From Clostridiaceae bacterium (GTDB lineage: Bacteria > Bacillota > Clostridia > Acetivibrionales > DTU013), in NCBI GenBank assembly GCA_039679375.1, contig JBDKVA010000076.1, forward strand, positions 2,139 to 66,138: 64,000 bases of DNA. Reading direction: 5' to 3'. This document shows positions 28,242 to 60,999 of this stretch, one piece after another (the stretch's first letter is position 1; each line of letters starts with the position of its first letter). The notes beneath the pieces were generated by a model that was not told the origin of the DNA, did not search any database, and saw nothing but the letters and a program-made list of their open reading frames with translations. Both the position numbers and the translations under genes were made by a program.

Positions 28242-28270
28242 TTGACTTTTTTAAAGATTATAAATATAAT
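28242..28270 (+). promoter_or_regulatory. Near-consensus sigma-A promoter in front of the PKS/NRPS operon
   Basis: TTGACT, 17-nt spacer, TATAAT, 46 nt upstream of the thioesterase start. It sits in an A+T-rich 186-nt gap. Confidence 0.55.
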
Positions 28271-28315
28271 ATTTAAAACGACATTAATGTAATTAATGGG
28301 AAATGGTGTATATTT

Positions 28316-29056
28316 ATGAGGGGATCCGAACATTTGTCAAGTATAATAAAGTTATTCTGTTTCCCCTATGCAGGCGGTTCAGCATCCGTATACGGTAAAC
28401 TGAAACAGTATTTGGATAAAAATATTGAAATCGTACCTATTGAGTATACCGGAAGAGGAAAAAGGATAAATGAGAAGTTCTATACCGATATTTCCGGTGC
28501 AATCGACGATATTTATGAAGTGATCCGCAAACATATTAATGGTCATGAGTTTGCATTTTTAGGTCACAGCATGGGATGCGTCATTGCTTATGAAATTTGC
28601 AAAAGAGTAAGGGAGGATTGCGGAAGGGAACCGGCGCACATTTTTGTATCGGGAAGATATCCGCCGCACGTCAGGAAGAAGAGTACCATTTTACATACTC
28701 TCCCAAACGACAGGTTTAAAAATGAAATTATGAAAATAGGAGGTACTCCGAAAGAAATATTTGAAAATGAAGAATTGTCACAAATTTTTATTCCCATACT
28801 GAAGGCTGATTATAGGTTGGTAGAGCTTTATGAATTTCAGGATGAGAATGTAAGATTCAACTCCGGGATCACCGTATTAAGCGGTAAGGATGACAAAATA
28901 GTTGAAAAGGATGAATTATATGAATGGCAAAAGTATTCATTCTATGCAATAGATTTATATGAATTTGACGGCGGACATTTTTTTATCAACAACTATGTTA
29001 AGGAAATAGCGGAGATCATTAATCATTCACTAGACGTTCGTTCTATACCGGTATAA
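28316..29056 (+). CDS. Type II (editing) thioesterase
   Basis: 246 aa with 'FCFPYAGGSASVY', nucleophile elbow 'GHSMG', and 'GKDD' / 'GGHFF' at the C-terminus. Confidence 0.9.
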   Translation: MRGSEHLSSIIKLFCFPYAGGSASVYGKLKQYLDKNIEIVPIEYTGRGKRINEKFYTDISGAIDDIYEVIRKHINGHEFAFLGHSMGCVIAYEICKRVREDCGREPAHIFVSGRYPPHVRKKSTILHTLPNDRFKNEIMKIGGTPKEIFENEELSQIFIPILKADYRLVELYEFQDENVRFNSGITVLSGKDDKIVEKDELYEWQKYSFYAIDLYEFDGGHFFINNYVKEIAEIINHSLDVRSIPV

Positions 29057-29082
29057 TCTAAAACGCCTGTTTATGGAAGGAA

Positions 29083-31059
29083 ATGAACATGCTCGATAGT
29101 GGAATGTCGACGACCGTTTTTTTAGTTTCGGGTGCATTTATACTTGTAACAATATTTCATCTCTTCATACTTCTTAAAGAGATCGTGACGAAGCAGCGCA
29201 GTTTTCGAACGAAAGGGATAAAAGATGCTGGTACTGTTCTATTTTCTTTCGCACTTATCGGCGCGATTTTTTATTGCCTCTACAAGGCTCCGTTTGCGTT
29301 GTTTTACGGAACAACATGGGAAATGATTGATGAATTCGGACCTTCACTACTTATTAAAGTAGCTGTTTGCATGGTTTTTGTCATCCCATTATTTTATCTG
29401 TATTTTATTCTTTCACACTTCTTTGTTAAGAAAAATGGCAAGCCCTATTTTTTGATTATTATACTCAGCATATTGAGTGCGTTAGGGAACTCGATGATTA
29501 TTGTAATAATAAATCAGGCGCTAAACAGGGTAATGGGAGATGAAAGCCGCAGGGCCGGGATAGAAAGCGGATTATACCTATACTTCCTGCTGGGTATTGC
29601 GCTTTTTACAGTAAGCGCAATGATCGTCAGAAAAAAGTTAATTGTCATTACAAGCCAGATGGTTTACGAAAAGCGGGTAGAGATTATCGACAGGTTAATG
29701 AACGCTCCCTATGAAAAATTTGAAGCGATGGAAGACGGCAAGATACATGCCGCCCTTAATAATGACACCGAAGCAGTCAGCGGGTTTGTTAATGCATTAG
29801 TCAATGGATTGACCGGAGTTATTACATTAATTACATGCTTCATCTATTTGGGAACAATCAACCTGTTAGGAATGCTTTTCTCAATTTTAATGATATGCGT
29901 TGCCGTAGGACTATTCCTTTCTGTCAGTGACAAAGCGGAAAAGAAGTTTGAAGAGAACAGAGATATACAAAATCATTTTTTCAGGTTTATTAATGATATG
30001 GTAAAAGGCTTTAAAGAGCTGTACATAAATAAAAAGAAGTGCCGTGAATTCACGGATGATATTCAAAAAAGCTGCCTGGATTACCGGGATTCACGCGTCG
30101 AAGGGGAGTTCAGCTTTGTCGGAGTCTCAATATTGGGGGAAATACTTTATATCCTGGTAGTCGGTATTGTCGTGTTTATTTTCCCGTTGATATTTCCGAA
30201 TCTGGAGAACACCAGACTAAACAACTATGTTCTTGTATATTTATACATGGGCGGGATCGTAAATCAGGAAATTTACCTGGTGCCGGGAATCATGCGGGTG
30301 CTGGTCAGCTGGAGAAGGATAAATCAATTTATAAATGAGCTTTCATCCCAGAATCCTGCAAACCGCCATACTTCTGCTCCTTTAAACAACAAGGCTGCTT
30401 TGGATATAAGCTTGAAAGACGTCAGGTTCCAATACAAAAATGAAACCGGAGAAAACTTCTCTGTAGGTCCTCTCAATTGCAACTTCAAATCAGGAGAAAT
30501 TGTTTTCATATCCGGTGGAAACGGGAGCGGCAAATCAACTCTGGTCAAGCTGCTGACAGGTCTTTACAGACCTGATGAAGGCAATATTACCATAAATGGA
30601 CTTCCTGTTGATACAGAAACTCTCGGGAGCTGCTTCTCAACTGTTTTCAGTGATTTTTTTCTTTTTGACAAAATGTATGGCATCGACTATGAAAGGAAAA
30701 CTGCGGAAATCAGTCACTACCTGGATGTGCTGCGTATCCGGGATAAAGTCCGGATATGCGACGGAGTATTCAGCACAGTTAAGCTTTCTACCGGACAGAG
30801 GAAAAGGCTGGCTCTTTTGATCAGTTATCTGGAGGACCGCCCTGCTTATGTTTTTGATGAATGGGCGGCAGATCAGGATCCGGAATACAGGAACTTCTTT
30901 TACAGGGCATTGCTGCCCGAACTGAAGGCAAGAGGCAAGGCGGTTGTTGCCATAACGCATGACGACCGCTATTTCAGTGAAGCGGATATACATATAAAGA
31001 TGGAAACAGGTCAGATCATCAGCTGTGTAAGGAATCACGCACAAGCTGTGACTGCATGA
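29083..31059 (+). CDS. Cyclic-peptide-type ABC exporter (SyrD/YojI-like fused TMD-NBD) with an N-terminal extension
   Basis: 658 aa. Walker A 'GGNGSGKST', signature 'LSTGQRKRL', Walker B 'YVFDEWAADQD'. About 110 extra N-terminal residues carry about 3 additional hydrophobic helices. Confidence 0.85.
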   Translation: MNMLDSGMSTTVFLVSGAFILVTIFHLFILLKEIVTKQRSFRTKGIKDAGTVLFSFALIGAIFYCLYKAPFALFYGTTWEMIDEFGPSLLIKVAVCMVFVIPLFYLYFILSHFFVKKNGKPYFLIIILSILSALGNSMIIVIINQALNRVMGDESRRAGIESGLYLYFLLGIALFTVSAMIVRKKLIVITSQMVYEKRVEIIDRLMNAPYEKFEAMEDGKIHAALNNDTEAVSGFVNALVNGLTGVITLITCFIYLGTINLLGMLFSILMICVAVGLFLSVSDKAEKKFEENRDIQNHFFRFINDMVKGFKELYINKKKCREFTDDIQKSCLDYRDSRVEGEFSFVGVSILGEILYILVVGIVVFIFPLIFPNLENTRLNNYVLVYLYMGGIVNQEIYLVPGIMRVLVSWRRINQFINELSSQNPANRHTSAPLNNKAALDISLKDVRFQYKNETGENFSVGPLNCNFKSGEIVFISGGNGSGKSTLVKLLTGLYRPDEGNITINGLPVDTETLGSCFSTVFSDFFLFDKMYGIDYERKTAEISHYLDVLRIRDKVRICDGVFSTVKLSTGQRKRLALLISYLEDRPAYVFDEWAADQDPEYRNFFYRALLPELKARGKAVVAITHDDRYFSEADIHIKMETGQIISCVRNHAQAVTA

Positions 31060-32414
31060 ATAAAAAGACGGGAAAGCAGCTTAGATCAATAAAAAGTGGG
31101 GTTCATGGAATGATAAAGAGGTTTTTTACAGTTTGCCTGCTATCCATATTTCTGCTCCAATCAGGATGCAGCAGTGTGATATCCGTTCCTTCCGCACCGG
31201 TCGGCAGCTACAGCGTCGATGGGGTAAGCATTACGGATAAAGGTAATTACTTTAGTGTTGTACTTGATTTTACCACCGGTCTGACACACAGGCAGGTCGG
31301 AGAAGCTTATGCAAAGGGAATACTGCAGTTGGTGCCCGACTATGAAGCACTTGTTGATTCATACATTGCTGAAAATATTATTCATTCCGATTACAAACCC
31401 GCTTTTAACCGTATAGAGGACATTAAACCCGGTATAAATGATGATTTTATAGAAGAGATCGATGCAATGGCGTCAGTTTTGTCCGGTGGCGGGAATGATT
31501 TGAGAAGAGATGGAAAAGTGTCGCGAAATGAATTTTATCTCTTTAACCTGTTCACAGATGTAGTTCGTGGTACCCAATGCAGTTATATCTCGGTTTTCGG
31601 AACGCGTTCCGCAACGAAAAAAACGATCACGGGAAGGAACCTGGATTGGTACGGAGGCAGCAGGAACCAGCTTCCAAGGCTCCAGGCAGTAATTACCCAC
31701 CTTTATCCTGACAAAAAGGTATGTTCTATCGGTTACATGGGTTTTATGGGAGTTATTACAGGTTTTAATGACAGCAGGATTTTCGCGGGTATCCTTGATT
31801 CAGGTACAAATGCGGCATATACATCCGAAGGAAGGCGCTCCTATGTTTTTGATCTGAGATATGCGCTGGAGAATATGAGAACGATGGATGATGCGGCGGA
31901 ATTTATGAGAGATCCCTCAAAGCTTTATACATATAACCATATCATCGGGTTTTCCGATCCGGACAGGAGCATTATTCTGGAAAATAATTTCAGCGGGAGC
32001 GGATCGGACGGGAACAGAGTAAAACGCGCAATAAGAGAGAGCGATTCCGGGCTGAACAAAAATATAACCTGGGGGATCAGTAATGCCGCAGCTGCAGTAA
32101 ATTCCTTTGTGCTTTACGGTAATCATGATAATCATACACCCAATAAATATAATACGAAAAGGTGGTCAAATATTAAAACACAATTGCAGAATGAAGGCTC
32201 AGAGGTATCCTCCGAGAAAATGAAGAGGATCATTTCCTATAACCGCGGCAAACCGGGCAACTTTTCCGAGAGCGGCGATATTTATAATAAAATGACTTTG
32301 CAAATGATCGTATTTCAGCCGGATACCCTGTCGCTTGAGATTTATTTTCGTCCGAAGGGTAACAGGATCAACCCGGTTCAACCTGTTTTTGAAAAGATTG
32401 AGGTTTTTGAGTAA
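31056..32414 (+). CDS. Secreted or lipid-anchored Ntn-hydrolase-like protein (peptidase C45 / acyl-CoA:6-APA acyltransferase-like)
   Basis: 452 aa; 4-nt overlap with the exporter gene. Signal/lipobox-like 'FTVCLLSIFLLQSGCSS'. 'GTQCSYISVFG...ITGRNLDWYGG' resembles the self-processing Gly/x-Cys nucleophile and the 'GxNxDW' motif of C45/C59 Ntn hydrolases. An alternative start is ATG 31110. Confidence 0.5.
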   Translation: MNKKTGKQLRSIKSGVHGMIKRFFTVCLLSIFLLQSGCSSVISVPSAPVGSYSVDGVSITDKGNYFSVVLDFTTGLTHRQVGEAYAKGILQLVPDYEALVDSYIAENIIHSDYKPAFNRIEDIKPGINDDFIEEIDAMASVLSGGGNDLRRDGKVSRNEFYLFNLFTDVVRGTQCSYISVFGTRSATKKTITGRNLDWYGGSRNQLPRLQAVITHLYPDKKVCSIGYMGFMGVITGFNDSRIFAGILDSGTNAAYTSEGRRSYVFDLRYALENMRTMDDAAEFMRDPSKLYTYNHIIGFSDPDRSIILENNFSGSGSDGNRVKRAIRESDSGLNKNITWGISNAAAAVNSFVLYGNHDNHTPNKYNTKRWSNIKTQLQNEGSEVSSEKMKRIISYNRGKPGNFSESGDIYNKMTLQMIVFQPDTLSLEIYFRPKGNRINPVQPVFEKIEVFE

Positions 32415-32446
32415 TAAACGATGAGATAGAATGGGGGAAGCGAAAA

Positions 32447-35400
32447 ATGTCCCAATATGCTACTCTTGTTGATTTGATCAAGGCGAGAAAAGAAGAGGAA
32501 CAAAAAGGAATAACATTCATTCTCGGCGATAAGGAAGAGCGCTATGTATCATATAAGCAGCTGTACCTGACGTCTTTACGGCTTCTGTATACTCTCCGGC
32601 AATCAGGCTACAGGCAGGGAGACGAGGTCCTGTTTCAAATCGAGGATAACGAGCGCTTTGTTTATTCCTTCTGGGCATGCATTCTTGGCGGTATGATACC
32701 TGTACCCGTATCTACAGGCAATAACGATGAACACAAGCTGAAGCTGTTTAAAATATGGGGTAAACTGAAGAATCCAAGAGTGATCATATCAGCCGAGTTC
32801 CTGAACAAAATGGAAGCATTCGCCGAAAAAAACGGATTAAGCGCTCAAATGGAGGCTGTCAGGAACAGCGCGACGTTTATTGAGGATGCCATTCAGACAG
32901 AGATGTATGGGGATATTTGCCGCCCCGACCCGGAAGATATTGTACTGATCCAATTTTCATCGGGCTCCACAGGCGACCCGAAAGGTGTGATCATTACACA
33001 TGGAAATGTTCTGACAGATTTGAACGCAGTGATCCGGTGGGAGCATATCGGCATGAACGACGCCGGACTTAACTGGATGCCTCTTACGCATGACATGGGG
33101 TTGATCGGCACGCACATAAAAGGGATCATGGCATGCATAAACCAATTCAATATCCAGACACAGCTGTTTATAAGGCATCCCTCCCTATGGATCGAAAAAG
33201 CCAGCGAGCATAAGGCTACCTTGCTGTACTCGCCTAATTTCGGATATAAACATTTTCTGAAGTTCTATAATCCTGAAGCAATGAAGGAATGGGATTTGTC
33301 AAGCGTACGTCTGATTTTCAACGGGGCTGAGCCGATATCTCTCGACCTCTGCAATGAATTTCTGGACAAGATGGCTGTCTATGGTCTAAAGAGGAATGCC
33401 ATGCATCCCGTATACGGCCTGGCGGAAGGTACCATTGCCGTTGCCTTCCCGAATGACGGCGAAGAATTATTGTTCCACACGCTTGACAGAAACCATCTTA
33501 GGATCGGAGAAACAGTAGTCGACTTATCGAATGAAAATAAGAATTCCATTGTTTTTTTGGACGAGGGTTATCCGATTTACAATAGCTTTGTCCGCATCTG
33601 TGATGAAGAAAATCATGATATAGGCGAAAACAGGGTGGGCTGCATTCAGATATCGGGAGGAAATGTCACTTCGGGATACTATAATGACATTCAGGCTACA
33701 AAAGAGGCTATAACACCCGATGGATGGCTGAAAACCGGCGACCTTGGCTTCATGAGGAACAGAAGGCTTACCATCACCGGGCGTTCAAAGGATGTTATTT
33801 TTGCAGCCGGGCAGAATTTTTATTCCCATGATATCGAGCGCGTCTGTGAATCGGTTGATGGCATGGAACTTGGCAAAATAGCGGCAGCGGGAGTATTCAA
33901 TGACCGCCTGGGATGTGATGAACTGATTCTTTTCGTCATGTACAGGCAAAAGCTTGAATCCTTTATTCCTGTTGCAGCAAGCCTGCGGAATGCGATCAGC
34001 CGGAAAATGGGTATTGAGGCCACGGAGATCATACCGGTAAAAAATATCCCCAAAACAACGAGTGGAAAGCTTCAACGGTATAAATTGCGTGAGGAATACA
34101 TAAATGGGGAGTATGACTTCATCAAGCAGCAAATGCATGCTTTACTGGAAGAAGATTTTAAAAGAAGGGAAATTGTTCCGCCTGCTAATCCCATCCAGGA
34201 AGAGCTGGTTAAAATATGGTCGGAGGTTCTGAACATTGAGCGGATAGGTATCCGGGACAATTTCTTTGATTTGGGAGGGGATTCCTTACGGATTACCCAA
34301 ATCGCTTCCAGAATTAGAGATCGTTTTCAAGTCGATTTGAATCAGGCAGCGCTTTTTGAAAATACTGATATACAAAAGCTTGCAGAGGTGGTGGAAAATG
34401 CGGCTTGCAAGCGGAAAGACACGTCTGGTGAGATCCGTACGGCAGCGTGTTTAAGTGAAAGGGCTCCCCTTTCCTTTGCGCAGCAAAGGCTATGGTTTCT
34501 TGACCGCCTGCATTTGCAAAGCCCCCAGTATAATCTGTATACGGGGTTTATTTTGAAAGGCATCCTGAATAGGGAGGTACTGCAAAAGAGCCTTAATAGT
34601 ATCATGAAGCGGCATAAAATATTGCAGTCCTATTTTATTGAAGAAAACGGTAAACCTGTGCAGATGCTGGACCAGGAAGCTATAATGCCACTGAAGTATG
34701 TCGACTTGAGGAACATACCGGAAGCGGACAGGAGGACAAAAGCCGAGGATCTGGCAAAAATGGAAGCGGGAAAGTCCTTTGACCTTGAAAAGCCTCCGCT
34801 TATCAGAGGCAGGCTGATCTGCACCGGTGATGCGGAGCATATGCTGATTTTAGCGGTACATCACATCGTTTTTGACGGATGGTCTTTCGGAATACTCCTG
34901 CATGATCTGAATCTATTTTATGAAGCGCTTCTGAATGGAGAGGAGCAAACGCTGTCTGAGCCGGATATACAATATGCTGATTTTTCCAGGTGGCAGAATG
35001 AAAATGAATGGCCAGGATATTTGAACGGGCAGCTTGCATATTGGAGGAAGCAGCTTGAAGGCCGCTTGCCCGTATTGGATTTGCCGCTCGACAATCCAAG
35101 GCCTCCGGTCCAAACCTACAATGGAGCAAGGTTTACATGCGGCATTCCGGCGGAACTGGTGAATAAGCTGCAGAAATATGCAAGGAAAGAGAATGCAACA
35201 TTGTTCATGGTGCTGCTGGCGGCATTTAAAACTCTTCTATGCAGGTATTCAGGCCAATCGGACATCATTGTAGGCTCGCCCATAGCTAATAGAAACCGGA
35301 AAGATATTGAGGGCTTGATTGGATTTTTCACCAACAATATTATCCTGCGCACCCGCTTTTCAAATAAGATCGTGTTTAGCGAGCTTTTAGCAAAGGTGAG

Positions 35401-53982: not shown

Positions 53983-56900
53983 TTGCAGCCGCAGTATTCA
54001 GGGGGAAGCCATATGTTTGGAAATCAAGAGGTTAAACCTGTGGAACAGTCTATTGATGAATTTGTAGCCGGGCTGGAAGATAAAAAAATTAAATTATGGG
54101 CAGAAGGTGATTCACTTCGGTATAAAGCACCGGCAGGAGTAATAACAAAAGAGGTGTTAAAAAGCCTGAGTGACAAAAAGGCTGCAATATTGGACTACTT
54201 AAAGTATAAAGACGCCGGCGGGATCTTTTCTATTCCGATCAGCAAGGCGGGAGAAAAGGAATGCTACCCTTTGTCTGCCGCCCAGATGAGGATGTTTTTG
54301 CTCAATCGGCTTGATGACAGCAGTACCGCTTACAACCTGACGCAGGTCCTTAAAATAAAGGGAGAGATTGATAAGGAACGTCTTCATGCAGTTTTAAGAC
54401 AGCTTGCAGCCAGACATGAAGCCCTCAGGACCTCTTTTGAAATGGCGGATGGGAGGCCTGTACAGAGGATACATGATGATGTGGATTTTGAAGTGGATTA
54501 TCAGGAGGCTGATGCTGCAGATGAGAATATTGCAGGAATAATAAAGGACTTTATAAAACCGTATGACCTGTCAAAAGCGCCTTTGTTCAGGTTTAAGCTG
54601 GTAAAGCTTATTGGTACCGACGGTAAGCCGTCATACATCCTGATCCAGGATATGCATCATATTATATCCGATGGTGTTTCAGAAGGTTTATTGGTCCGGG
54701 AGGTAAATGGATTATTTTCAGGAAAACGCTTGCCTGATCAGAGGATACAATACAAGGATTATGCAGAGTGGCACGAAAAGCTCTTAAAAAGCAGCGGGAT
54801 TCAACGTCAGAAGCAGTACTGGCTTGAAAGGCTGAAGCCCGAAATCCCTCTGCTCAATTTGCCGACTGATCACGCCAGGCCGCCTATATTCAGCTTTGAG
54901 GGGAGCTCTTTAAAATTCCGTATTGGAAGAGGCATGGTTTGCAAGCTGCATAACCTTGCGCGTGAAAACAGGGTGACGCTATTTACTCTGCTGCTTGCGG
55001 CATATGCCATTTTGCTTGAGCGTTATACCGGCCAGGATGATATCATGATCGGGACGCCTGTTGCGGGAAGAAGACATGCCGATATTCTCAATACCATCGG
55101 CGTTTTTATCAATACGCTGGCACTGAGGATTTCATACGCACCTGAAAGCAGTTTTGCAGAATTCCTGAAAAGTCTTGGACAGGATGTTTTGCAGGCCTTC
55201 GACAATCAGGATTATCCTTTTGCAAATCTTGTTGATGATATTGTTGTAAAGCGGGATATGAGCAGGAATCCGGTTTTTGATACCATGTTTATACTGCAGA
55301 ATATGGATGTTGACGAAATCAAGGTCGAAGGTCTGGAGATATCCGGCTATGAATTTGATAAGGGTATGGCGCAGTTCGATATTACACTTATAGCAACTGA
55401 GATAAAAGATGAAATAGAAATCGAATTGAATTATTGCACGAGCCTGTTCTCAGAGGACACCATCCGCAGATTCGGCGCGCACTATATCAACATATTGGCT
55501 TATATGTCGGAGCACCCCGAAGTAAGGCTCCGGGAAATTGATATGTTATCGGATGCGGAGAAGCATCAGCTTTTATATGAGTTTAACAACACGACTGTTC
55601 CTTATCCTAAAGAAAAATTGGTCCACAGTCTTTTCGAAGAACAGGTCAGGAGGACGCCCGGAAATGTGGCGCTTGTATTAAGAGACAGACAGGTTACTTA
55701 TAAGAAATTGAACGATATGGCAAATTGCATAGCAAACAAATTACGTGAAAAAGGTGCTGACAGAAATAGCATTGTAGGGATACTGGCAAACCGTTCGTTT
55801 GAAATGCTGGCAGGCATAATTGGCATACTGAAGTCAGGCGGCGCATATTTGCCGATCGATCCCGGATATCCTGAGGACAGGATCAATTATATGATAGAAG
55901 ACAGCGAGACCCGTGTATTGCTGACGATGAGCCATTTAAAGTGCAAGATCGGATTTGACGGAGAAACCGTTTTTCTTGATGAGCTGGATTACGCCGATTC
56001 TCCGGCAGTTGACCCGGAAATCATAAACAGACCGGAAGATCTTGCGTATATGATCTATACGTCGGGTTCTACAGGAAAGCCTAAAGCAGTTATGATAAGC
56101 CACCGGGCGCTGAATAATTTTATCAGGGGCATGACGGATAAAATTGAGTTCAGGCAGGAGAAGTCCATCCTGGCACTAACAACGGTTTGCTTTGATATAT
56201 TTGCACTGGAGACACACCTGCCGTTAACATGCGGAATGAAAGTCGTTATTGCGGATGAGAATCAGCAGATGGATTCAAAACTTCTTTATGATCTTATTAC
56301 CGAGCATAATATTGATATGCTTCAGATGACGCCTTCCAGGATGAAGCTGCTTTTAAGCAATAAAAACAGTGCAAATTGTTTAAACAAGGTAACCGATATC
56401 ATCGTCGGGGGAGAGATGCTGTCCGACAACCTGCTCAAGGAGATAAGCAGCATAACGAAGGCCAGGATATTCAATGCCTACGGGCCTACGGAAACGACTG
56501 TGTGGTCCGCATTAAAAGAATTGTCGGGATCAGAACAGGTCAATATAGGAAGACCGATAGCAAATACGCAGATATATATATTGGGCAGCACAAACAGGCT
56601 GCAGCCGGTCAATGTAACCGGCGAGCTGTGCATAGGAGGAGATGGCCTTGCCAGGGGGTATTGGAAAAGAGAAGATCTGACAAAAGAAAAATTTATCACC
56701 AACCCCCATACGAACAGCCGAATTTATAAGACCGGCGACCTGGCGTGCTGGACGGCGGATGGAGAGCTGAAGCTAGCGGGCAGGATGGATCATCAGGTAA
56801 AAATAAGAGGCTACAGGGTGGAGCTTGAGGAAATCGAAAAACAGCTGATGGGTTATACCGGCATGGAGGATTGTGTCGTAACTGCCCGTGAGGACAGCTT

Positions 56901-59900
56901 GGGGAATAAATATATCGCGGCGTATTATGTTTCTGCCGGGGAGCAAAATGTAGGGCAGATGCGTGCATTCCTTTCCGGAACGCTGCCCGAATATATGGTG
57001 CCGGGGACGTATACCAGGCTTGAACAGTTTCCGAGAACAGCAAACGGTAAAATAGACAGAAAGTCATTGCCGGAGCCTGTGTTGGTGCGCCAGTCTCTAG
57101 GTAACGAATTTATTGAGGCAAAAACAAGAAGTGAAAAAGTGTTGGAGGATATCTGGAAATCACTTTTGGGCACAGATCAGATCGGCATCCATGATAATTT
57201 TTTTGATGCAGGCGGCAATTCGCTTTTACTGGTACAAATGCATGCAAAAATCGAAGAAAAGTTTCCGGGGAAAATATCCGTTGCCAGAATCTTTGCTTAC
57301 CCGACCATTTCAAAATTAGCCGGCTTTCTGGATGAAGATTGTACCTTATCCATGGATGAGCGGAAAGCAGCTTCAACTGCTTTACAGGATGCGATGGAAT
57401 CAGGTGCTTGCGGGAAAGCACCCGTGAAGGATATTGCAATCATAGGCATGCACGGAGTATTTGCCGGAGCCGAAGACTTTGATGAATATTGGGAAGCTTT
57501 GAGGACCGGAAAGGATTGCACCAGAGAAATACCTGCAAATAGAAGGACGGATCTGGAAAATATTCTAGCATCGGCCGGAGCTGCGGATCAAAAAAGGAAT
57601 CCGGAATACATGCGGTGTGGGTATATGAAGGAAATCGACAAATTTGATTACAGCTTTTTTAATATATCTCCGCGGGAAGCAAGCTTTATGGATCCCAATC
57701 AGCGGCTTTTTCTGCAAACAGCGTGGAAAGCGGCGGAGGACTCCGGATATGGGGGAGGACTGCTAAGAGGGAGTAAAACAGGCGTATATGTCGGATATAG
57801 CAGTGATTTCGGAAAAGAATACAAGGATATCATCCGGCTGACCGGAGAGGATCCTGCAGCTCAGCTGGTACCCGGAAATATCAAATCAATTATCGCAGGC
57901 AGGATCGCATATCTGATGGATCTGAAAGGCCCGTGCATTACGGTCGATACAGCCTGCTCATCCGCCCTTGCCGCCGTTCATCTGGCCTGCAGCGGAATCA
58001 GAAACGGAGAATGCACAATGGCGCTGGCCGGGAGTGTAAAAATAAGCCTTACGCCGTTTGACACGGACAGGGAAAGCAGAACAGGCGCAGGGCTTTCGAA
58101 CGGAAAGGCAAGGGTATTTGATGAAGCTTCGGACGGCACAGGCTTTGGAGAAGGTGTTGCGGCGGTTTTACTCAAGCCGCTTGACGAAGCTGTTCACGAT
58201 CGCGATCATATATATGCGGTCATAAAAGGTAGCGCAATGAATCAGGACGGCGCCTCCGTCGGGTTAACGGCGCCGAACTCCGCCGCCCAGGAAGAGCTTA
58301 TATTGCAGGCATGGGATAATGCAGGGGTGGATCCCCTTACCATTTCCTATATTGAGGCAAACGGAACGGGAACTAAATTAGGGGATTCTATCGAAATCGA
58401 AGCTATTACCGGAGCATTCAGAAAATATACAAACAGAAAACAATTTTGTGCGATCGGTTCAGTGAAAGGCAATATGGGGCATCTGGATCATACGGCAGGT
58501 ATGGCCAGGCTTATTAAAGCGGTGCTGTCATTGAAAAACAGCATGATACCGCCCACTCTGCATTTTGAAAATCCAAATACGATGATTGATTTTACAGGTT
58601 CACCGGTATATGTAAACGACAAACCGGAAAAATGGGAGACGGCGGGATTCCCGAAGAGGTGCGGAGTCAGCGCTTTCGGCTTAAGCGGGACGAACTGCCA
58701 TATTATACTGGAAGAGCCGCCATTGGGAATGCCTGCGCGGGAAGATAAAGCAAGCCCGGAAGTCAATATTCTGTCGATGTCTGCAAAAAGTAAAGCGACG
58801 CTTAAGGAAATCGTCCGGCAGTATAAAGCATTTCTCGGGAAGAATGAAAAGATTGATTTAAGGGATGTTTGCCATACGGCTAACACCGGAAGGGGACATT
58901 ACAATTTCAGGTTGGCTGTTATGTTTAAAAGAAGGGACGACCTTACGGACAAAATTGAAACGCTTATCAGCTCCGATCTGGATATTCGCAATCATAACAG
59001 CATACATACCGGAGAATTTAAGATAATATCAGGACAGCATTGCATGGGTAAAATGGGAGAACTGACACAGGAGGATGTAAAAAAGCTAAATCAGGAAGTG
59101 AATATTATTTTAAAAAGGATGGAAGAAGAGCCGGACAATGAAGTTTTACATGGAGCTTTGTGCGGTTTGTATGTAAAGGGAGCGGATATTGACTGGAATA
59201 AGCTCTATACCGGTAAAGGATCAAAACGGGTAAGTCTGCCGACCTACCCGTTTGAAAGAAAAAGATGCTGGATTGAGCCTGTAATAGATGAAAGCGGATA
59301 CCGGCCAAACGAATTGAACTGCTCTGCAAATCGCTCCCGCATAATGAATGTAAGGCTTGAGGGGAGAGATGACGGACGCTACACGGTAACGGAAATGAAA
59401 ATAAGCTCAATATGGGGAGAATTATTGGGGCTTGATGTAATCAATATACGGGATGACTTTTTCATGCTAGGCGGCAACTCACTCATAGCGCTTAGGTTTG
59501 AAGCGGAAATGGAAAAGAAACAGCTTAAGGTTGATCATTCTATGGTTTATACTTATCCGACAATTATAGGATTGGCGGAATACCTGGATAAAAATGATAA
59601 ACATCCTGATACAGATAGCGGACAAATGATTAACAGCACTGCTGCAATGATTGCGGGAGCAAATATGGATTGCCGCGAGAAAGGGATTGAACTTGAAAAT
59701 ATCGAGCCATTCAACGATATTATCTATAAAGGATGCTTTTACAGCGCTTACCTTCCGGTAGTAAACCTGTATGGAATACCGGTGCTTGCTGTTTTAGTAA
59801 ATGAAGTCAGTACGTATAAATTACTGGATGATGGAAAAACCAAAATACTTAATATTGATTATCTGCCAGGCAAGCCTTTCTATGCCTTGTCCGAAAGTAT

Positions 59901-60723
59901 GGGCATCAAGGCATACGTCAGGCATAAGTCCGGCGATATCATCAATGATACATTAACAGCGCTTCGAGGTAACAGGCCGGTTATAGTATGTGTCGATCTG
60001 TATCATGTATCAATTAGACCGGATATGTATAACAAGACGCATGAACCGCATTGTTTATTGATTTATGGTTTTGAAGAAACCGGGCAAGTATTCCGTATTC
60101 TTGAACACCGCCATTCAGGAAGCCTGGTGTATGAAAAGCGTACGTTAAGATATGCGGATCTGGAAAAGTCATATGCAGGATACCTTGATCATTTCAATAA
60201 ATTGGATATAATAAAAAGCAACCTTTATAATCTGGAATATATAAATGATAAGGAAGCCCCGTCATTCTTTGAGTTTGACAGGATCGGACAGAATAATACC
60301 GTTACCGACATGGATGTTTTAGGGGTTTTCTCTGTGAACCTTAAGTGTCAGGAGAAAAAAGTCCAGGAAGGATTGGAATGCTTGAAAGCCTTTTCACCGG
60401 AGTTTGCAAAAGTAATTTTGGATGAGCAAAAGGCCGTTAAAAATGCAGAAAATATCATCGTCTTTCTTAGCGAGGTGATACTTTCAAAACAGGCCGAGTA
60501 CTATAGAAATTCAAAGCTGTTGGAGCACCGGCCTGAATTGCATGAAGCACTTAATCAAAGTCTTGTATATTGGAATTTCATCAGGGCGAATATTGGTAAA
60601 ATGCACTATACATCGAAGTATAGAAGGGGAAATATGGAGGATTGTGCTGAAAAGTTGAATTCGATATATCAGCTTGAAAAAAGTTACTATGAAAATCTGT
60701 ATTCTATATTGAATAGTAAATGA
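53983..60723 (+). CDS. Hybrid NRPS/PKS terminal protein: docking - C - A(Gly-like) - T - KS0 - [linker] - ACP - BtrH-like papain-fold domain; likely start ATG 54013
   Basis: Docking 'IDEFVAGLEDKKIKLWAEGDSLRYKAPAGVITKEVLKSLSDKKAAILDYLK'. C 'HHIISDG'. A 'YTSGSTGKPKA'. T 'GGNSL' (Ser 57220-22). KS 'TACSSA' (Cys 57955-57) but 'EANGTGT' (Asn 58360-62 where His is expected). 'YPFERKRCW'. ACP 'GGNSL' (Ser 59479-81). The C-terminal ~340 aa carry Cys (59734-36) and His motifs. No TE, R or terminal C domain. Confidence 0.9.
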   Translation: MQPQYSGGSHMFGNQEVKPVEQSIDEFVAGLEDKKIKLWAEGDSLRYKAPAGVITKEVLKSLSDKKAAILDYLKYKDAGGIFSIPISKAGEKECYPLSAAQMRMFLLNRLDDSSTAYNLTQVLKIKGEIDKERLHAVLRQLAARHEALRTSFEMADGRPVQRIHDDVDFEVDYQEADAADENIAGIIKDFIKPYDLSKAPLFRFKLVKLIGTDGKPSYILIQDMHHIISDGVSEGLLVREVNGLFSGKRLPDQRIQYKDYAEWHEKLLKSSGIQRQKQYWLERLKPEIPLLNLPTDHARPPIFSFEGSSLKFRIGRGMVCKLHNLARENRVTLFTLLLAAYAILLERYTGQDDIMIGTPVAGRRHADILNTIGVFINTLALRISYAPESSFAEFLKSLGQDVLQAFDNQDYPFANLVDDIVVKRDMSRNPVFDTMFILQNMDVDEIKVEGLEISGYEFDKGMAQFDITLIATEIKDEIEIELNYCTSLFSEDTIRRFGAHYINILAYMSEHPEVRLREIDMLSDAEKHQLLYEFNNTTVPYPKEKLVHSLFEEQVRRTPGNVALVLRDRQVTYKKLNDMANCIANKLREKGADRNSIVGILANRSFEMLAGIIGILKSGGAYLPIDPGYPEDRINYMIEDSETRVLLTMSHLKCKIGFDGETVFLDELDYADSPAVDPEIINRPEDLAYMIYTSGSTGKPKAVMISHRALNNFIRGMTDKIEFRQEKSILALTTVCFDIFALETHLPLTCGMKVVIADENQQMDSKLLYDLITEHNIDMLQMTPSRMKLLLSNKNSANCLNKVTDIIVGGEMLSDNLLKEISSITKARIFNAYGPTETTVWSALKELSGSEQVNIGRPIANTQIYILGSTNRLQPVNVTGELCIGGDGLARGYWKREDLTKEKFITNPHTNSRIYKTGDLACWTADGELKLAGRMDHQVKIRGYRVELEEIEKQLMGYTGMEDCVVTAREDSLGNKYIAAYYVSAGEQNVGQMRAFLSGTLPEYMVPGTYTRLEQFPRTANGKIDRKSLPEPVLVRQSLGNEFIEAKTRSEKVLEDIWKSLLGTDQIGIHDNFFDAGGNSLLLVQMHAKIEEKFPGKISVARIFAYPTISKLAGFLDEDCTLSMDERKAASTALQDAMESGACGKAPVKDIAIIGMHGVFAGAEDFDEYWEALRTGKDCTREIPANRRTDLENILASAGAADQKRNPEYMRCGYMKEIDKFDYSFFNISPREASFMDPNQRLFLQTAWKAAEDSGYGGGLLRGSKTGVYVGYSSDFGKEYKDIIRLTGEDPAAQLVPGNIKSIIAGRIAYLMDLKGPCITVDTACSSALAAVHLACSGIRNGECTMALAGSVKISLTPFDTDRESRTGAGLSNGKARVFDEASDGTGFGEGVAAVLLKPLDEAVHDRDHIYAVIKGSAMNQDGASVGLTAPNSAAQEELILQAWDNAGVDPLTISYIEANGTGTKLGDSIEIEAITGAFRKYTNRKQFCAIGSVKGNMGHLDHTAGMARLIKAVLSLKNSMIPPTLHFENPNTMIDFTGSPVYVNDKPEKWETAGFPKRCGVSAFGLSGTNCHIILEEPPLGMPAREDKASPEVNILSMSAKSKATLKEIVRQYKAFLGKNEKIDLRDVCHTANTGRGHYNFRLAVMFKRRDDLTDKIETLISSDLDIRNHNSIHTGEFKIISGQHCMGKMGELTQEDVKKLNQEVNIILKRMEEEPDNEVLHGALCGLYVKGADIDWNKLYTGKGSKRVSLPTYPFERKRCWIEPVIDESGYRPNELNCSANRSRIMNVRLEGRDDGRYTVTEMKISSIWGELLGLDVINIRDDFFMLGGNSLIALRFEAEMEKKQLKVDHSMVYTYPTIIGLAEYLDKNDKHPDTDSGQMINSTAAMIAGANMDCREKGIELENIEPFNDIIYKGCFYSAYLPVVNLYGIPVLAVLVNEVSTYKLLDDGKTKILNIDYLPGKPFYALSESMGIKAYVRHKSGDIINDTLTALRGNRPVIVCVDLYHVSIRPDMYNKTHEPHCLLIYGFEETGQVFRILEHRHSGSLVYEKRTLRYADLEKSYAGYLDHFNKLDIIKSNLYNLEYINDKEAPSFFEFDRIGQNNTVTDMDVLGVFSVNLKCQEKKVQEGLECLKAFSPEFAKVILDEQKAVKNAENIIVFLSEVILSKQAEYYRNSKLLEHRPELHEALNQSLVYWNFIRANIGKMHYTSKYRRGNMEDCAEKLNSIYQLEKSYYENLYSILNSK

Positions 60724-60741
60724 CAAATTATAGGGGATGAT

Positions 60742-60999
60742 GTGTTGAGCAGCGTATATGAAAAAATAGTGGAAATAGTAAAAAGGCATCTGTATGAAAT
60801 AGCGCCGGAAATGGAAGTGACACTTGAAAGCAGGTTAATAGACTTAGGAATTAATTCAATAGGGTTTATAAAAATAATCGTTGAAGTTGAAAATGAATAT
60901 GATTTTGAATTCAATGACCTGGATTTGGATTTTAAAAAGTATGTTACGATCAAAGATTTTTGTGATTATATATTAAAAAAATACATTCAATTAATATAG
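60742..60999 (+). CDS. Stand-alone acyl/peptidyl carrier protein
   Basis: 85 aa with a GTG start after AGGGGA. 'LIDLGINSIGFIKIIVEVENEY' has the D-x-G-x-x-S phosphopantetheine-attachment motif (Ser 60856-58). It starts 18 nt after the terminal megasynthase gene. Confidence 0.7.
   Translation: MLSSVYEKIVEIVKRHLYEIAPEMEVTLESRLIDLGINSIGFIKIIVEVENEYDFEFNDLDLDFKKYVTIKDFCDYILKKYIQLI

What the first reader, a model, noticed from the sequence alone, without database searches (positions are those of the whole stretch)
28242..60999. Orphan FAAL-primed trans-AT PKS/NRPS assembly line (about 33 kb, one promoter, tightly coupled genes)
All genes run in one direction behind a near-consensus promoter. In order they are: type II TE, SyrD-like exporter, Ntn-hydrolase-like lipoprotein, five megasynthase genes, one discrete AT and one orphan carrier protein. 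The gene junctions at 31056, 42324 and 48939 overlap by 4, 14 and 4 nt. The line has three NRPS and four KS-containing modules. It has no functional cis-AT, no TE/R/terminal-C release domain and no epimerisation, methylation or cyclisation domains. I do not recognise this domain string (FAAL-ACP-C-A-T-KS-KR-DH-ACP / KS-AT*-ACP / C-A-T / KS-KR-ACP / C-A-T-KS0-ACP-X) as any characterised pathway. Natural-product clusters from anaerobic or spore-forming Clostridia are still sparsely characterised.
Basis: partly seen in the sequence, partly recalled or inferred. Interest (0 to 1): 0.8.

Follow-up and report, generated by a model that had tools for sequence, protein, structure and literature searches.

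The report
Clostridial lipopeptide-polyketide cluster, protease-like terminus
This is an intact gene cluster, probably from a Clostridia bacterium, for an unknown fatty-acid-primed peptide-polyketide; it matters because it seems to finish its product with a cysteine-protease-like transfer domain plus a small carrier protein rather than a standard release enzyme, and relatives are common in cellulose-degrading Clostridia.

Summary
Ten co-directional, tightly packed genes (28316-60999) encode type II TE, a SyrD/PvdE-type ABC exporter, a C45 Cys-Ntn-hydrolase lipoprotein, five megasynthases, one malonyl-type trans-AT and a small ACP.

The interpretation needs three corrections.
1. Domain "X" is not unknown. 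It has the papain-like, carrier-protein-dependent transacylase fold (BtrH/CtaG/CcbD/AziU3) with a conserved Cys and two conserved His. It is the terminal domain of at least 81 other megasynthases. A g10-like ACP lay downstream of it in all five related loci checked, directly adjacent in four. X is therefore the likely off-loading catalyst.
2. The cluster has relatives. Homologous clusters occur in Ruminiclostridium cellulolyticum (52-56% identity, same gene order) and in many Clostridia MAGs. They share the front end and differ in the back end. Their products are unknown.
3. The upstream gene 26528-28129 (BtrH-like domain fused to an AziU2-like domain) probably belongs to the cluster.

Predicted chain: acyl-Gly-(enoyl C2)-(beta-keto C2)-Ser-(beta-hydroxy C2)-Gly.

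Inferred maturation: export, then extracellular N-deacylation by the C45 enzyme, as PvdE/PvdQ do for pyoverdine.

dN/dS of 0.06-0.43 for g0-g4 against a 98% relative (0.06-0.20 for all but the small TE gene) argues that the genes are functional.

Verdict: new variant of a known kind, moderately interesting.

The parts
26528..28129 (+). g0: 533-aa protein. An N-terminal BtrH-like papain-fold domain (Cys15, His129) is fused to a C-terminal AziU2-like domain. Probably an accessory transacylase of the cluster.
   Evidence: Pfam BtrH_N over residues 15-145. PDB AziU2/Azi28 matches residues 412-483 at E 9e-8. hhalign places its Cys15 and His129 on the Cys14 and His119 of X. A docking-domain version lies inside related cluster L011 (28% identity, E 9e-20). 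Split AziU2-like and BtrH-like genes lie next to an X-terminated PKS in L004. dN/dS 0.20.
28242..28270 (+). Sigma-70-type promoter-like site TTGACT-17-TATAAT in front of g1.
   Evidence: Matches 11 of 12 positions. Consensus match only; not tested.
28316..29056 (+). g1: type II thioesterase (GHSMG). Probably an editing enzyme.
   Evidence: Pfam Thioesterase E 5e-45. Motif found.
29083..31059 (+). g2: fused TMD-NBD ABC exporter of the SyrD/PvdE 'cyclic peptide export' family.
   Evidence: NCBIfam TIGR01194 at 356 bits, cutoff 286. Pfam ABC_membrane plus ABC_tran. dN/dS 0.11.
31110..32414 (+). g3: lipoprotein, a C45-family autoproteolytic Cys-Ntn acyltransferase/hydrolase. The alternative start is 31056. 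The proposed nucleophile is Cys175 (numbering from 31056).
   Evidence: NCBIfam NF040521 at 193 bits, cutoff 85. Cys175 is invariant in 121 homologues. The LLQxGC lipobox is conserved. AF2 model pLDDT 93. Foldseek top hits are the isopenicillin N acyltransferase precursor, acid ceramidase and NAAA. dN/dS 0.06.
32447..42337 (+). g4 (3296 aa): FAAL-ACP-C-A(Gly-like)-T-KS-KR(A-type)-DH-ACP.
   Evidence: Pfam. The FAAL HDMGL motif and insertion align without gaps to E. coli FAAL 3pbk. A-domain code DILALGVIWK. KS motifs. KR and DH motifs.
42324..45398 (+). g5 (1024 aa): KS-AT0-ACP. The AT remnant covers about nt 43965-44603.
   Evidence: Pfam. GGDAG replaces GHSLG, FPANACH replaces FPGQGSQ, and the domain is truncated.
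45475..48942 (+). g6 (1155 aa): TubC_N-type docking domain-C-A(Ser)-T.
   Evidence: Pfam. A-domain code DVWHFSLIDK. C motif HHIISDA.
48939..52670 (+). g7 (1243 aa): KS-KR(B-type)-ACP.
   Evidence: Pfam. KS motifs. HAAGIADN in the KR.
52706..53965 (+). g8 (419 aa): discrete malonyl-type acyltransferase (GHSLG, Arg, PFHT) with a C-terminal extension of about 120 aa.
   Evidence: NCBIfam fabD TIGR00128 at 307 bits. Alignment to FabD. More than 100 homologues of 53-72% identity and about 420 aa, the named ones all from Clostridia/Bacillota.
54013..60723 (+). g9 (2236 aa from ATG 54013): dock-C-A(Gly-like)-T-KS0-ACP-X.
   Evidence: Pfam. A-domain code DILQIGAVWK. KS0 motif ANGTGT. 59% identical to P0001, which has an active KS plus a KR at this position.
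57427..58953 (+). KS0 of g9: non-elongating KS with His changed to Asn in HGTGT.
   Evidence: Alignment of the four KS domains. Comparison with P0001.
59689..60720 (+). Domain X: papain-like, carrier-protein-dependent transacylase fold (BtrH/CtaG/CcbD/AziU3 type). Proposed off-loading catalyst.
   Evidence: Weak Pfam BtrH_N and Peptidase_C39_2 hits. 808 family representatives at E up to 1e-3. Invariant Cys14, Asp101, His116 and His119, and the matching Cys, Asp and two His conserved in at least 149 of 151 sequences, with Glu-His in at least 144. AF2 model pLDDT 92.7. Foldseek hits AziU3 E 1e-9, CcbD E 3e-7, CtaG E 8e-7.
60742..60999 (+). g10: discrete AcpP-like ACP of 85 aa (DLGINS). Conserved partner of X.
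   Evidence: Pfam PP-binding. Weak NCBIfam acyl carrier protein hits. A homologue lies downstream of X in L009, L003, L002, L004 and L005, directly adjacent in the first four.

Best explanation
The window carries an intact biosynthetic gene cluster of about 34.5 kb (26528-60999) that is under purifying selection. It is probably from a spore-forming Clostridia bacterium, and it lies between lplA and the glycine-riboswitch-controlled gcvT-gcvH genes.

Shown from the sequence:
- The assembly line is collinear, in the order g4 -> g5 -> g6 -> g7 -> g9. One discrete malonyl-type AT (g8) serves it.
- TubC_N-type docking domains sit at the N-termini of g6 and g9.

Inferred from domain logic:
1. The FAAL loads a fatty acid (or similar acid) on ACP0, and C1 joins it to Gly.
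2. KS1, KR and DH add a C2 unit and make an enoyl group (a vinylogous glycine).
3. KS2 adds a C2 unit that stays as a beta-keto group.
4. C2/A2 add Ser.
5. KS3 and KR add a beta-hydroxy C2 unit.
6. C3/A3 add a second Gly.
7. KS0 passes the chain to the last ACP.

Inferred from fold, conserved Cys/His, position and conserved neighbours:
8. The fused papain-like transacylase X takes the chain onto its Cys. It then transfers it to a nucleophile, working together with the discrete ACP g10 and possibly the BtrH/AziU2-like protein g0. In this model X replaces a TE, R or terminal C domain as the release or condensation catalyst.

Inferred by analogy with PvdE/PvdQ and other lipopeptide deacylases:
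9. The SyrD/PvdE-type ABC transporter exports the acylated product.
10. The cell-surface C45 Cys-Ntn hydrolase lipoprotein removes or exchanges the N-acyl group.

The type II TE is an editing enzyme. The cluster belongs to a family that is widespread in cellulolytic Clostridia. Members share the front end and differ in the back end.
For: Gene and domain map.

Active-site checks:
- KS1-3 are intact and KS4 is His->Asn.
- The AT remnant is dead, and g8 looks like FabD.
- The C motifs are present.
- KR and DH motifs are present.
- A-domain codes are Gly-like, Ser, Gly-like.
- FAAL signatures are present.

Domain X:
- The family has 808 representatives.
- Of the top 150, 81 sit at the extreme C-terminus of a megasynthase, and 75 have a carrier-protein Ser motif within 170 aa upstream.
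- The Cys, both His and the Asp are conserved in at least 149 of 151 sequences.
- A confident model matches AziU3, CcbD (including a CcbD-PCP complex) and CtaG over its full length.
- CtaG, BtrH and AsbE are reported to be carrier-protein-dependent amide-forming transacylases, and MllDE is a carrier-transacylase fusion (PMC12865890, PMC7183216).

Partners of X:
- A g10-like ACP lies downstream of X in 5 of 5 related loci, directly adjacent in four.
- Extra BtrH-like or AziU2-like genes accompany X in L002 and L004.
- A docking-domain g0 homologue sits inside the assembly-line operon in L011.

Export and deacylation:
- g2 scores above the TIGR01194 cutoff and g3 above the C45 cutoff.
- g3 has a conserved lipobox and an invariant Cys.
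- Its fold matches IAT, acid ceramidase and NAAA, which are N-acyl amide enzymes.
- The ABC-C45-FAAL megasynthase order is conserved in R. cellulolyticum.

Function of the genes:
- dN/dS is 0.06-0.43 for g0-g4 against a 98% identical relative.
- Copies at least 97% identical at the protein level occur in two independent datasets.
Against: - No product, transcript or enzyme activity is known. Behnken & Hertweck reported that the clostridial PKS clusters they tested were silent in standard culture (PMC3250452).
- The nucleophile used by X is unknown. Nothing in the operon obviously loads an amine on g10, which looks like a fatty-acid-type ACP.
- AziU3, the best structural hit, is not a transacylase, so the fold does not prove the chemistry.
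- The C45 enzyme could equally serve immunity, recycling or acyl exchange. Known lipopeptide deacylases such as PvdQ belong to a different Ntn family.
- g0 lies upstream of the proposed promoter and is absent from the R. cellulolyticum locus.
- The A-domain codes deviate from textbook Gly codes (DILALGVIWK; DILQIGAVWK). Trans-AT collinearity is often broken.
Confidence: 0.6

Rival explanations
1. The assembly line is the same, but X acts like a thioesterase. It hydrolyses the acyl-S-Cys intermediate or cyclises it with an internal Ser or beta-OH group. The product stays a lipopeptide. The C45 lipoprotein is a self-protection or turnover enzyme, and g10 and g0 are only accessory.
For: Papain-fold enzymes are hydrolases by default. 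No amine-supplying gene is present in the operon. Deacylases such as GdnD and Tem25 have been proposed to act in detoxification (PMC10587159). g0 is not conserved in R. cellulolyticum.
Against: A dedicated small ACP is kept downstream of X in 5 of 5 loci. That is hard to explain for a plain hydrolase. The characterised full-length structural relatives CcbD and CtaG form amides from carrier-bound donors. In L011 a g0-type domain carries an assembly-line docking domain and is followed by further modules.
Confidence: 0.25
2. The line has no release domain, X is an unknown add-on and g10 is an orphan. The chain is released by the type II TE or spontaneously. The cluster is a one-off orphan.
For: No TE, R or terminal C domain is found in the megasynthases. 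A TEII is encoded at the start of the operon.
Against: X has a defined catalytic fold with conserved Cys and His residues, and it recurs at the ends of megasynthases. g10 is conserved with X. The R. cellulolyticum relative shows no TEII in the 10 kb upstream of its C45 gene. Homologous clusters are numerous.
Confidence: 0.08
3. The cluster is a decaying, non-productive relic, as suggested by the dead AT, the KS0, the deleted KR and the reported silence of such clusters.
For: The AT remnant. The KS His->Asn change and the roughly 540-aa KR deletion relative to P0001. Related clusters were reported silent in culture. The R. josui copy is fragmented in its assembly.
Against: All ORFs are intact, up to 3296 codons. 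All other catalytic motifs are present. dN/dS is 0.06-0.20 for g0, g2, g3 and g4, comparable to or lower than the flanking lplA at 0.29. AT remnants and KS0 domains are normal features of working trans-AT lines (established knowledge).
Confidence: 0.07

Closest known systems
Cryptic trans-AT PKS/NRPS cluster of Ruminiclostridium (Clostridium) cellulolyticum H10 around ACL76668.1 (one of the CcelA-D clusters of Behnken & Hertweck 2012, probably CcelD by KS count; this assignment is not verified), and its relatives in R. papyrosolvens, R. josui and Clostridia MAGs
   Same: The gene order ABC exporter - C45 lipoprotein - FAAL-ACP-C-A-T-KS... megasynthase - KS-AT0-ACP is the same. Amino-acid identity is 52-56%. 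Metagenomic relatives are 72-73% identical over g5-g8 (L009). The product is unknown in all of them.
   Different: The R. cellulolyticum locus has no g0 and no TEII upstream. The back ends differ between relatives: C-A-T-X in L009, extra NRPS modules in L012, and a docking-domain g0-like protein followed by more modules in L011. The window has C-A-T-KS0-ACP-X.
Papain-like carrier-protein-dependent transacylases: CtaG (closthioamide), BtrH (butirosin), AsbE (petrobactin), CcbD/LmbD (lincosamides), MllDE (carrier-transacylase fusion)
   Same: [quoted passage not shown] The Cys and His residues are conserved. The donor is presented on a carrier protein. A second carrier protein is encoded next door, as with CtaH/CtaE.
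   Different: Sequence identity is only 12-16%. X is fused to the C-terminus of a modular PKS/NRPS after the final ACP. I found no description of this arrangement in the searchable literature. Its acceptor is unknown.
AziU3/AziU2 aziridine-forming complex (azinomycin)
   Same: AziU3 is the best structural hit for X. g0 combines a BtrH/AziU3-like domain with an AziU2-like domain in one chain.
   Different: AziU3/U2 is reported to be functionally unrelated to transacylation (PMC12865890). X and g0 keep the Cys and His residues typical of transacylases. I saw no sulfotransferase or amino-group carrier protein genes in the window.
Pyoverdine maturation (PvdL acyl starter, PvdE exporter, PvdQ Ntn-hydrolase) and other lipopeptide deacylations (GdnD, Tem25)
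   Same: An acyl-primed assembly line, a TIGR01194-family ABC exporter and an extracytoplasmic Ntn-hydrolase (PMC10587159).
   Different: From general knowledge, PvdQ-type acylases are Ser-Ntn penicillin-acylase-family enzymes. g3 is a Cys-Ntn C45 enzyme related to IAT, acid ceramidase and NAAA. Deacylation is not shown here.
Colibactin/xenocoumacin-type prodrug activation (N-acyl-D-Asn, ClbP-type S12 peptidase)
   Same: The logic is the same: an N-acylated precursor, export, then cleavage outside the cytoplasm.
   Different: Here there is no Asn-type A domain, no E domain and no S12 peptidase. The first residue is Gly-like.
Bacillaene PksJ/BaeJ front end and barnesin-type vinylogous amino acid modules
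   Same: An acyl-ligase-type loading domain, then C-A(Gly)-T, then a reducing trans-AT PKS module that makes an unsaturated unit next to the amino acid. The PksJ comparison rests on my own knowledge. Barnesin is described in PMC13096860.
   Different: The downstream modules differ, the domain order here is KS-KR-DH, and the termination differs.

Membership tests
trans-AT PKS/NRPS hybrid assembly line | KS-containing modules lack a functional in-line AT | tested here: met
   Four KS modules. The only in-line AT-like segment (in g5) has GGDAG in place of GHSLG and is truncated.
trans-AT PKS/NRPS hybrid assembly line | A discrete AT with intact catalytic motifs is encoded in the cluster | tested here: met
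   g8 has GHSLG, the conserved Arg and PFHT. NCBIfam fabD at 307 bits.
trans-AT PKS/NRPS hybrid assembly line | NRPS C-A-T modules are interleaved with PKS modules and have intact motifs | tested here: met
   Three C-A-T modules. C motifs are HHIVFDG, HHIISDA and HHIISDG. Every carrier domain has its Ser.
trans-AT PKS/NRPS hybrid assembly line | KS clades match the predicted incoming intermediates (transATor-type test) | not testable with these tools
   No KS reference phylogeny is available here.
FAAL-primed lipoinitiation | The loading domain is a fatty acyl-AMP ligase (HDMGL motif, FAAL insertion) followed by an ACP and a C domain | tested here: met
   The motif NWMPLTHDMGLIG is present. 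The insertion region aligns without gaps to E. coli FAAL 3pbk, whereas McyG has a deletion there. The best NCBIfam hit is 'fatty acyl-AMP ligase', but below its cutoff. ACP and C follow. Substrate chain length was not tested.
Papain-like carrier-protein-dependent transacylases (BtrH/CtaG/CcbD class) | Two-part fold: a papain-like N-terminal half plus a helical C-terminal half | tested here: met
   AF2 model with pLDDT 92.7. Full-length Foldseek matches to AziU3, CcbD and CtaG with probability 1.0 and TM 0.53-0.62.
Papain-like carrier-protein-dependent transacylases (BtrH/CtaG/CcbD class) | Conserved catalytic Cys-His(-Asp) residues | tested here: inconclusive
   The Cys (CFY motif), two His and an Asp are conserved in at least 149 of 151 family members. 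The Cys and one His align with the Cys and His of g0. I did not measure the 3D geometry of the triad or superpose it on CtaG or CcbD residue by residue.
Papain-like carrier-protein-dependent transacylases (BtrH/CtaG/CcbD class) | Acts on a carrier-protein-bound acyl donor and forms an amide | not testable with these tools
   Context supports it: X directly follows the last ACP, and a second ACP is conserved downstream. The activity itself needs an enzyme assay.
Papain-like carrier-protein-dependent transacylases (BtrH/CtaG/CcbD class) | Pfam BtrH_N match above the gathering score | tested here: not met
   X scores 23.9 bits against a cutoff of 29.7. Relatives P0002, P0005 and P0012 do pass it. 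g0 passes at 30.5 bits.
C45 autoproteolytic Cys-Ntn acyltransferase/hydrolase | Family profile match above the curated cutoff | tested here: met
   NF040521 at 193.4 bits against a cutoff of 85.
C45 autoproteolytic Cys-Ntn acyltransferase/hydrolase | Internal nucleophile Cys and the Ntn fold | tested here: met
   Cys175 is invariant in 121 sequences. The model matches the IAT precursor 2x1c (E 1.5e-13, TM 0.74 normalised to the target), acid ceramidase and NAAA precursors.
C45 autoproteolytic Cys-Ntn acyltransferase/hydrolase | Autoproteolytic activation and N-acyl amide cleavage of the cluster product | not testable with these tools
   Needs protein biochemistry.
SyrD/PvdE cyclic-peptide export ABC transporters | TIGR01194 match above the cutoff, with fused TMD-NBD | tested here: met
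   356.4 bits against a cutoff of 286.2. ABC_membrane plus ABC_tran.
ClbP-type N-acyl-D-Asn prodrug systems | First module incorporates D-Asn (Asn-type A domain plus E domain), and an S12 peptidase is present | tested here: not met
   The first A-domain code is Gly-like. There is no E domain and no S12 or beta-lactamase-fold protein in the operon.

The most novel reading that the evidence does not exclude
X together with its discrete ACP (and g0-type proteins) is a widespread, so far undescribed chain-termination module for PKS/NRPS assembly lines. In this reading a fused papain-like transacylase off-loads the finished chain by a ping-pong Cys-thioester mechanism onto a second carrier-bound or free nucleophile. 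That would make it a further release or coupling logic beside TE, R and terminal C domains.

In this cluster the exported N-acyl product would then be deacylated by the C45 lipoprotein. That would unmask a gamma-amino enone (H2N-CH2-CH=CH-CO-) able to cyclise to a pyrrole-type or otherwise reactive head group. This would be a prodrug mechanism of a new enzymatic type.
Probability: 0.3. Interest if true: 0.8.

Novelty: new variant of a known kind. Interest (0 to 1): 0.58.

Why it matters
Anaerobic cellulolytic Clostridia carry many silent trans-AT clusters, and almost no products are known. This cluster family is common in them.

It has two features that can be tested directly:
- A protease-fold transacylase domain is fused to the end of the assembly line, with a dedicated partner ACP. 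If X really off-loads chains, it would extend the recently defined CtaG/BtrH ligase class to modular megasynthases. It would also provide a portable termination or coupling part for engineering, and explain hundreds of 'release-domain-less' clusters. The family has 808 representatives, and about half of the top 150 are fused.
- A cell-surface Cys-Ntn hydrolase is paired with a PvdE-like exporter and a FAAL starter. This suggests cryptic acylation with extracellular activation in Gram-positive anaerobes.

R. cellulolyticum carries a homologous cluster and is genetically tractable, so the questions are experimentally accessible.

Tried and rejected
1. The search for homologous proteins with X alone returned nothing. 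The word index is too coarse for this family. The full HMMER scan was needed.
The 4-sequence version found only four loci, all with other architectures, and none was the source genome. The organism therefore could not be named.
3. The exact-sequence look-up of the AT with the TTG start failed. The ATG start gave only a 12-kb Logan contig.
4. PDB sequence searches for X and g3 were uninformative: E 0.2 and E 0.45. Structure prediction followed by Foldseek was needed.
5. I tested whether the R. cellulolyticum homologue is cluster CcelA, using the published KS1 RT-PCR primers. There was no match in L007. This is consistent with it not being CcelA KS1. A positive assignment to CcelD remains unverified.
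6. Literature searches for a characterised product, or for a described PKS-fused BtrH-like domain, found none. The library covers only open-access papers and bioRxiv, so this is not proof of absence.
7. The ClbP-type prodrug motif was considered and rejected: no Asn code, no E domain and no S12 peptidase.
8. The hairpin at 61283-61327 as the cluster's terminator was considered and judged unlikely. It lies downstream of the glycine riboswitch aptamer in front of gcvT and is more likely that riboswitch's terminator.
9. antiSMASH, transATor, MIBiG and BiG-SCAPE comparisons could not be run.

Full report

Yes. The ORF scan shows ten co-directional ORFs on the + strand between 28316 and 60999. Gaps are 76 nt or less, and the overlaps at 31056, 42324 and 48939 are 4, 14 and 4 nt.

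| Gene | Domains |
|---|---|
| g1 | Thioesterase |
| g2 | ABC_membrane + ABC_tran |
| g3 | no Pfam hit |
| g4 | AMP-binding-PP-C-A-PP-KS-KR-DH-PP |
| g5 | KS-(partial Acyl_transf_1)-PP |
| g6 | TubC_N-C-A-PP |
| g7 | KS-KR-PP |
| g8 | Acyl_transf_1 |
| g9 | TubC_N-C-A-PP-KS-PP plus a weak BtrH_N/Peptidase_C39_2 tail |
| g10 | PP |

A TTGACT-17-TATAAT site lies at 28242-28270 and matches 11 of 12 positions. It is only a consensus match.

Three start codons need correction.
- g8 starts at ATG 52706. That form is on record and the TTG form is not.
- g9 most likely starts at ATG 54013 (gene called as 2236 aa in L001).
- g3 most likely starts at ATG 31110. That start gives the lipoprotein signal MIKRF...LLQSGC, which its homologues conserve. 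With it, the 4-nt overlap at 31056 is doubtful.

**2. Active sites**

- KS1-3 have the Cys, HGTGT and NIGH motifs. KS4 reads ANGTGT and is a non-elongating KS0.
- The AT-like piece in g5 has FPANACH and GGDAG in place of FPGQGSQ and GHSLG. It stops after about 200 residues, so it is dead.
- g8 has GHSLG, the malonyl-type Arg and PFHT. It scores 307 bits on the NCBIfam fabD model.
- The C domains carry HHIVFDG, HHIISDA and HHIISDG.
- All carrier domains have their Ser.
- KR1 lacks the diagnostic Asp (HAAGIPGG, A-type). KR2 has it (HAAGIADN, B-type). The DH has the HPLLG His and the HPALLD Asp.
- Specificity codes were read by alignment to GrsA-PheA. I supplied that sequence from memory, and the control returned the expected DAWTIAAICK. 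The codes are DILALGVIWK (Gly-like), DVWHFSLIDK (Ser) and DILQIGAVWK (Gly-like).
- The loading domain carries the FAAL-type NWMPLTHDMGLIG motif. Its insertion region aligns without gaps to E. coli FAAL 3pbk, where McyG has a deletion. Its best NCBIfam match is 'fatty acyl-AMP ligase', below that model's cutoff.

**3. Predicted chain**

This is inferred from collinearity. The order g4-g5-g6-g7-g9 is supported by TubC_N docking domains on g6 and g9.

R-CO-NH-CH2-CH=CH-CO-CH2-CO-NH-CH(CH2OH)-CH(OH)-CH2-CO-NH-CH2-CO-S-ACP

**4. Domain X**

- The PDB sequence search gave only E 0.2 to AziU3. The word-indexed protein search found nothing.
- A full HMMER scan of 1.84 billion cluster representatives found 808 relatives at E up to 1e-3.
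- Of the best 150, 82 are fused to megasynthases. In 81 of those, X is at the extreme C-terminus. In 75, a carrier-protein Ser motif lies within 170 residues upstream. The other 68 are stand-alone proteins of about 335 aa.
- Fused examples include KS-DH-KR-ACP-X and dock-C-A-T-KS-KR-ACP-X.
- A Cys (CFY motif), two His and an Asp are conserved in at least 149 of 151 sequences, and a Glu-His pair in at least 144.
- The AlphaFold model is confident: pLDDT 92.7, pTM 0.90.
- Foldseek against the PDB returns only three families with significant scores, all with probability 1.0:
  - AziU3 (E 1e-9);
  - CcbD, including its complex with the CcbZ PCP and a C19S mutant (E 3e-7, TM about 0.6);
  - CtaG of closthioamide (E 8e-7).
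- The literature defines CtaG, BtrH and AsbE as papain-like, carrier-protein-dependent amide-forming transacylases. MllDE is a carrier-transacylase fusion. CtaG uses a ping-pong acyl-enzyme mechanism between two carrier proteins (PMC7183216; PMC12865890).

X is therefore a fused member of this fold class, placed where a release domain would sit.

**5. Partners of X**

- A homologue of the 85-aa ACP g10 lies downstream of X in all five related loci available: L009, L003, L002, L004 and L005. It is within about 200 nt of X in the first four and about 2 kb away in L005.
- L002 also encodes a stand-alone BtrH-like protein next to that ACP. L004 encodes two BtrH-like proteins, an AziU2-like protein, a GT2 and a radical SAM enzyme.
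- In the window, the gene just upstream of the proposed promoter is g0 (26528-28129). It has a BtrH_N domain whose Cys15 and His129 align with the Cys and His of X. It also has a C-terminal segment matching AziU2 at E 9e-8.
- In the related cluster L011, a 396-aa protein with a TubC_N docking domain and a g0-like BtrH domain sits inside the assembly-line operon, straight after the AT (28% identity, E 9e-20).

I therefore extend the cluster to 26528. I regard X, g10 and g0 as one off-loading set. The acceptor nucleophile remains unknown.

**6. Exporter and hydrolase**

- g2 passes the curated cutoff of TIGR01194, 'cyclic peptide export ABC transporter' (356 bits against 286). From general knowledge, this family includes SyrD and PvdE.
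- g3 passes NF040521, C45_proenzyme (193 bits against 85).
- g3 has a conserved lipobox and a Cys175 that is invariant in 121 homologues.
- Its model (pLDDT 93) matches the isopenicillin N acyltransferase precursor (E 1.5e-13), acid ceramidase and NAAA precursors. All of these are Cys-Ntn enzymes that act on N-acyl amides.
- A FAAL starter, a PvdE-type exporter and an extracytoplasmic Ntn hydrolase together mirror the pyoverdine PvdL/PvdE/PvdQ logic. They also mirror other lipopeptide deacylations (PMC10587159).
- The enzyme family differs from PvdQ, and the reaction is inferred, not shown.

**7. Relatives and novelty**

- A 97-98% identical copy of g0-g4 lies on a JGI metagenome contig with the same lplA flank (L006).
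- A 99-100% identical copy of g7-g10 lies on a Logan contig (L001).
- Between the window and L006, dN/dS is 0.20 (g0), 0.43 (g1, based on only 11 substitutions), 0.11 (g2), 0.06 (g3) and 0.19 (g4). The flanking lplA gives 0.29. The genes are under purifying selection.
- The C45 protein has 271 homologues. Those named by their sources are from Ruminiclostridium cellulolyticum, R. papyrosolvens, R. josui, Anaerobacterium chartisolvens and Clostridia MAGs.
- The AT has many homologues of about 420 aa in the same taxa and in Acetivibrio and Pseudobacteroides.
- In R. cellulolyticum H10 (C45 = ACL76668.1) the order is ABC, C45, a 3235-aa FAAL megasynthase, then KS-AT0-ACP. Identity to the window is 52-56%.
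- The back end varies between relatives:

| Locus or protein | Back end |
|---|---|
| L009 | C-A-T-X + ACP + a second Ntn hydrolase + a PPTase |
| L012 | two or more extra NRPS modules |
| L011 | dock-g0-like protein, then more modules |
| P0001 | an active KS plus KR where the window has KS0 and a deletion of about 540 aa |

- Behnken & Hertweck (2012) listed four cryptic PKS/NRPS clusters in C. cellulolyticum and reported that the PKS genes they tested were silent in standard culture (PMC3250452). The published CcelA KS1 primers do not match the homologous locus. By KS count it is probably CcelD, but I could not verify this.
- I found no characterised product and no description of a PKS/NRPS-fused BtrH-like terminal domain. 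The library holds only open-access papers and bioRxiv, and MIBiG could not be queried.

**8. Context**

- The cluster sits in ordinary chromosomal DNA.
- Upstream lie cysE-like and cysS genes, glycosyltransferase, YutH-type spore-coat kinase-like and sugar-nucleotide genes, and lplA.
- Downstream lie a glycine riboswitch with a terminator-like hairpin, then gcvT and gcvH.
- lplA and the gcv genes are functionally linked, because GcvH is lipoylated. This placement hints that the cluster was inserted between them. In L009 the homologous cluster has different neighbours.

**9. Verdict**

The finding is real and the domain reading is accurate. Three parts of the interpretation do not hold.
- The cluster is not without relatives.
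- It is not without a plausible release catalyst.
- g10 is not an orphan.

It is a new variant within the trans-AT PKS/NRPS class. Its most interesting feature is the fused papain-like transacylase with its partner ACP. The second is the paired exporter and C45 hydrolase.

Confidence in the overall model is 0.6. Domain composition and family assignments are solid. Building blocks, the off-loading chemistry and deacylation are inferred. Interest is 0.58.

Noticed in passing
window 61073-61235 (aptamer), 61283-61327 (hairpin plus T-run), gcvT 61456-62565, gcvH 62662-63045: A single-aptamer glycine riboswitch (RF00504 at 54 bits; it also resembles the glycine-GGAnGA variant, below that family's cutoff) is followed by a 20-bp terminator-like stem. 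It precedes gcvT-gcvH. No separate terminator is evident between the last cluster gene (ends 60999) and the aptamer, so read-through from the cluster into the riboswitch is possible.
   Followed up: partly
window 25336-26472 (lplA) versus 61456-63045 (gcvT, gcvH): The lipoate-protein ligase gene and the glycine-cleavage genes it serves are separated by the 34.5-kb cluster. This suggests the cluster was inserted between them. The homologous cluster in L009 has different neighbours.
   Followed up: partly
window 57427-59400 (g9 KS0 and linker) compared with protein P0001: g9 is 59% identical to a 2754-aa relative that has an active KS (HGTGT) and a KR before ACP-X. The window's version has lost about 540 aa (the KR) and carries a His->Asn change in the KS. 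This is module decay caught between three termination variants: C-A-T-X, C-A-T-KS0-ACP-X and C-A-T-KS-KR-ACP-X.
   Followed up: yes
window 53600-53965 (g8 residues about 300-419): The discrete AT carries a C-terminal extension of about 120 aa beyond the FabD fold. Its more than 100 homologues in Clostridia clusters have the same length (about 417-425 aa). Its function is unknown; it may dock the AT to the megasynthases.
   Followed up: no
window 28001-30000: The stretch covering the TEII gene and the first half of the ABC exporter gene has a much lower G+C content (0.357) than the rest of the cluster (0.44-0.50) and the flanks.
   Followed up: no
window 4996-10998: A Ser/Thr protein kinase gene (4996-6384) is followed by three large ORFs with no Pfam match (6496-7773 +, 7804-9333 +, 9355-10998 -). 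They lie in the most G+C-rich part of the left flank (0.50).
   Followed up: no
window 15908-24837: A block on both strands holds two GT4 glycosyltransferases, an NAD-dependent epimerase, a UDP-glucose dehydrogenase and two APH/YutH-type spore-coat kinase-like genes. It looks like a spore-coat or envelope glycan locus and supports a spore-forming host.
   Followed up: partly
window 12286-12657 (- strand): A small ORF matches the Phage_holin_4_2 family (E 2e-19). It stands alone between unannotated ORFs and the cysE-like/cysS genes.
   Followed up: no
L004 12040-16925 (- strand): Next to another X-terminated trans-AT PKS lie two stand-alone BtrH-like genes, an AziU2-like gene, a GT2 and a radical SAM/SPASM gene. 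This hints that X-type termination is often followed by further tailoring on the small ACP.
   Followed up: partly
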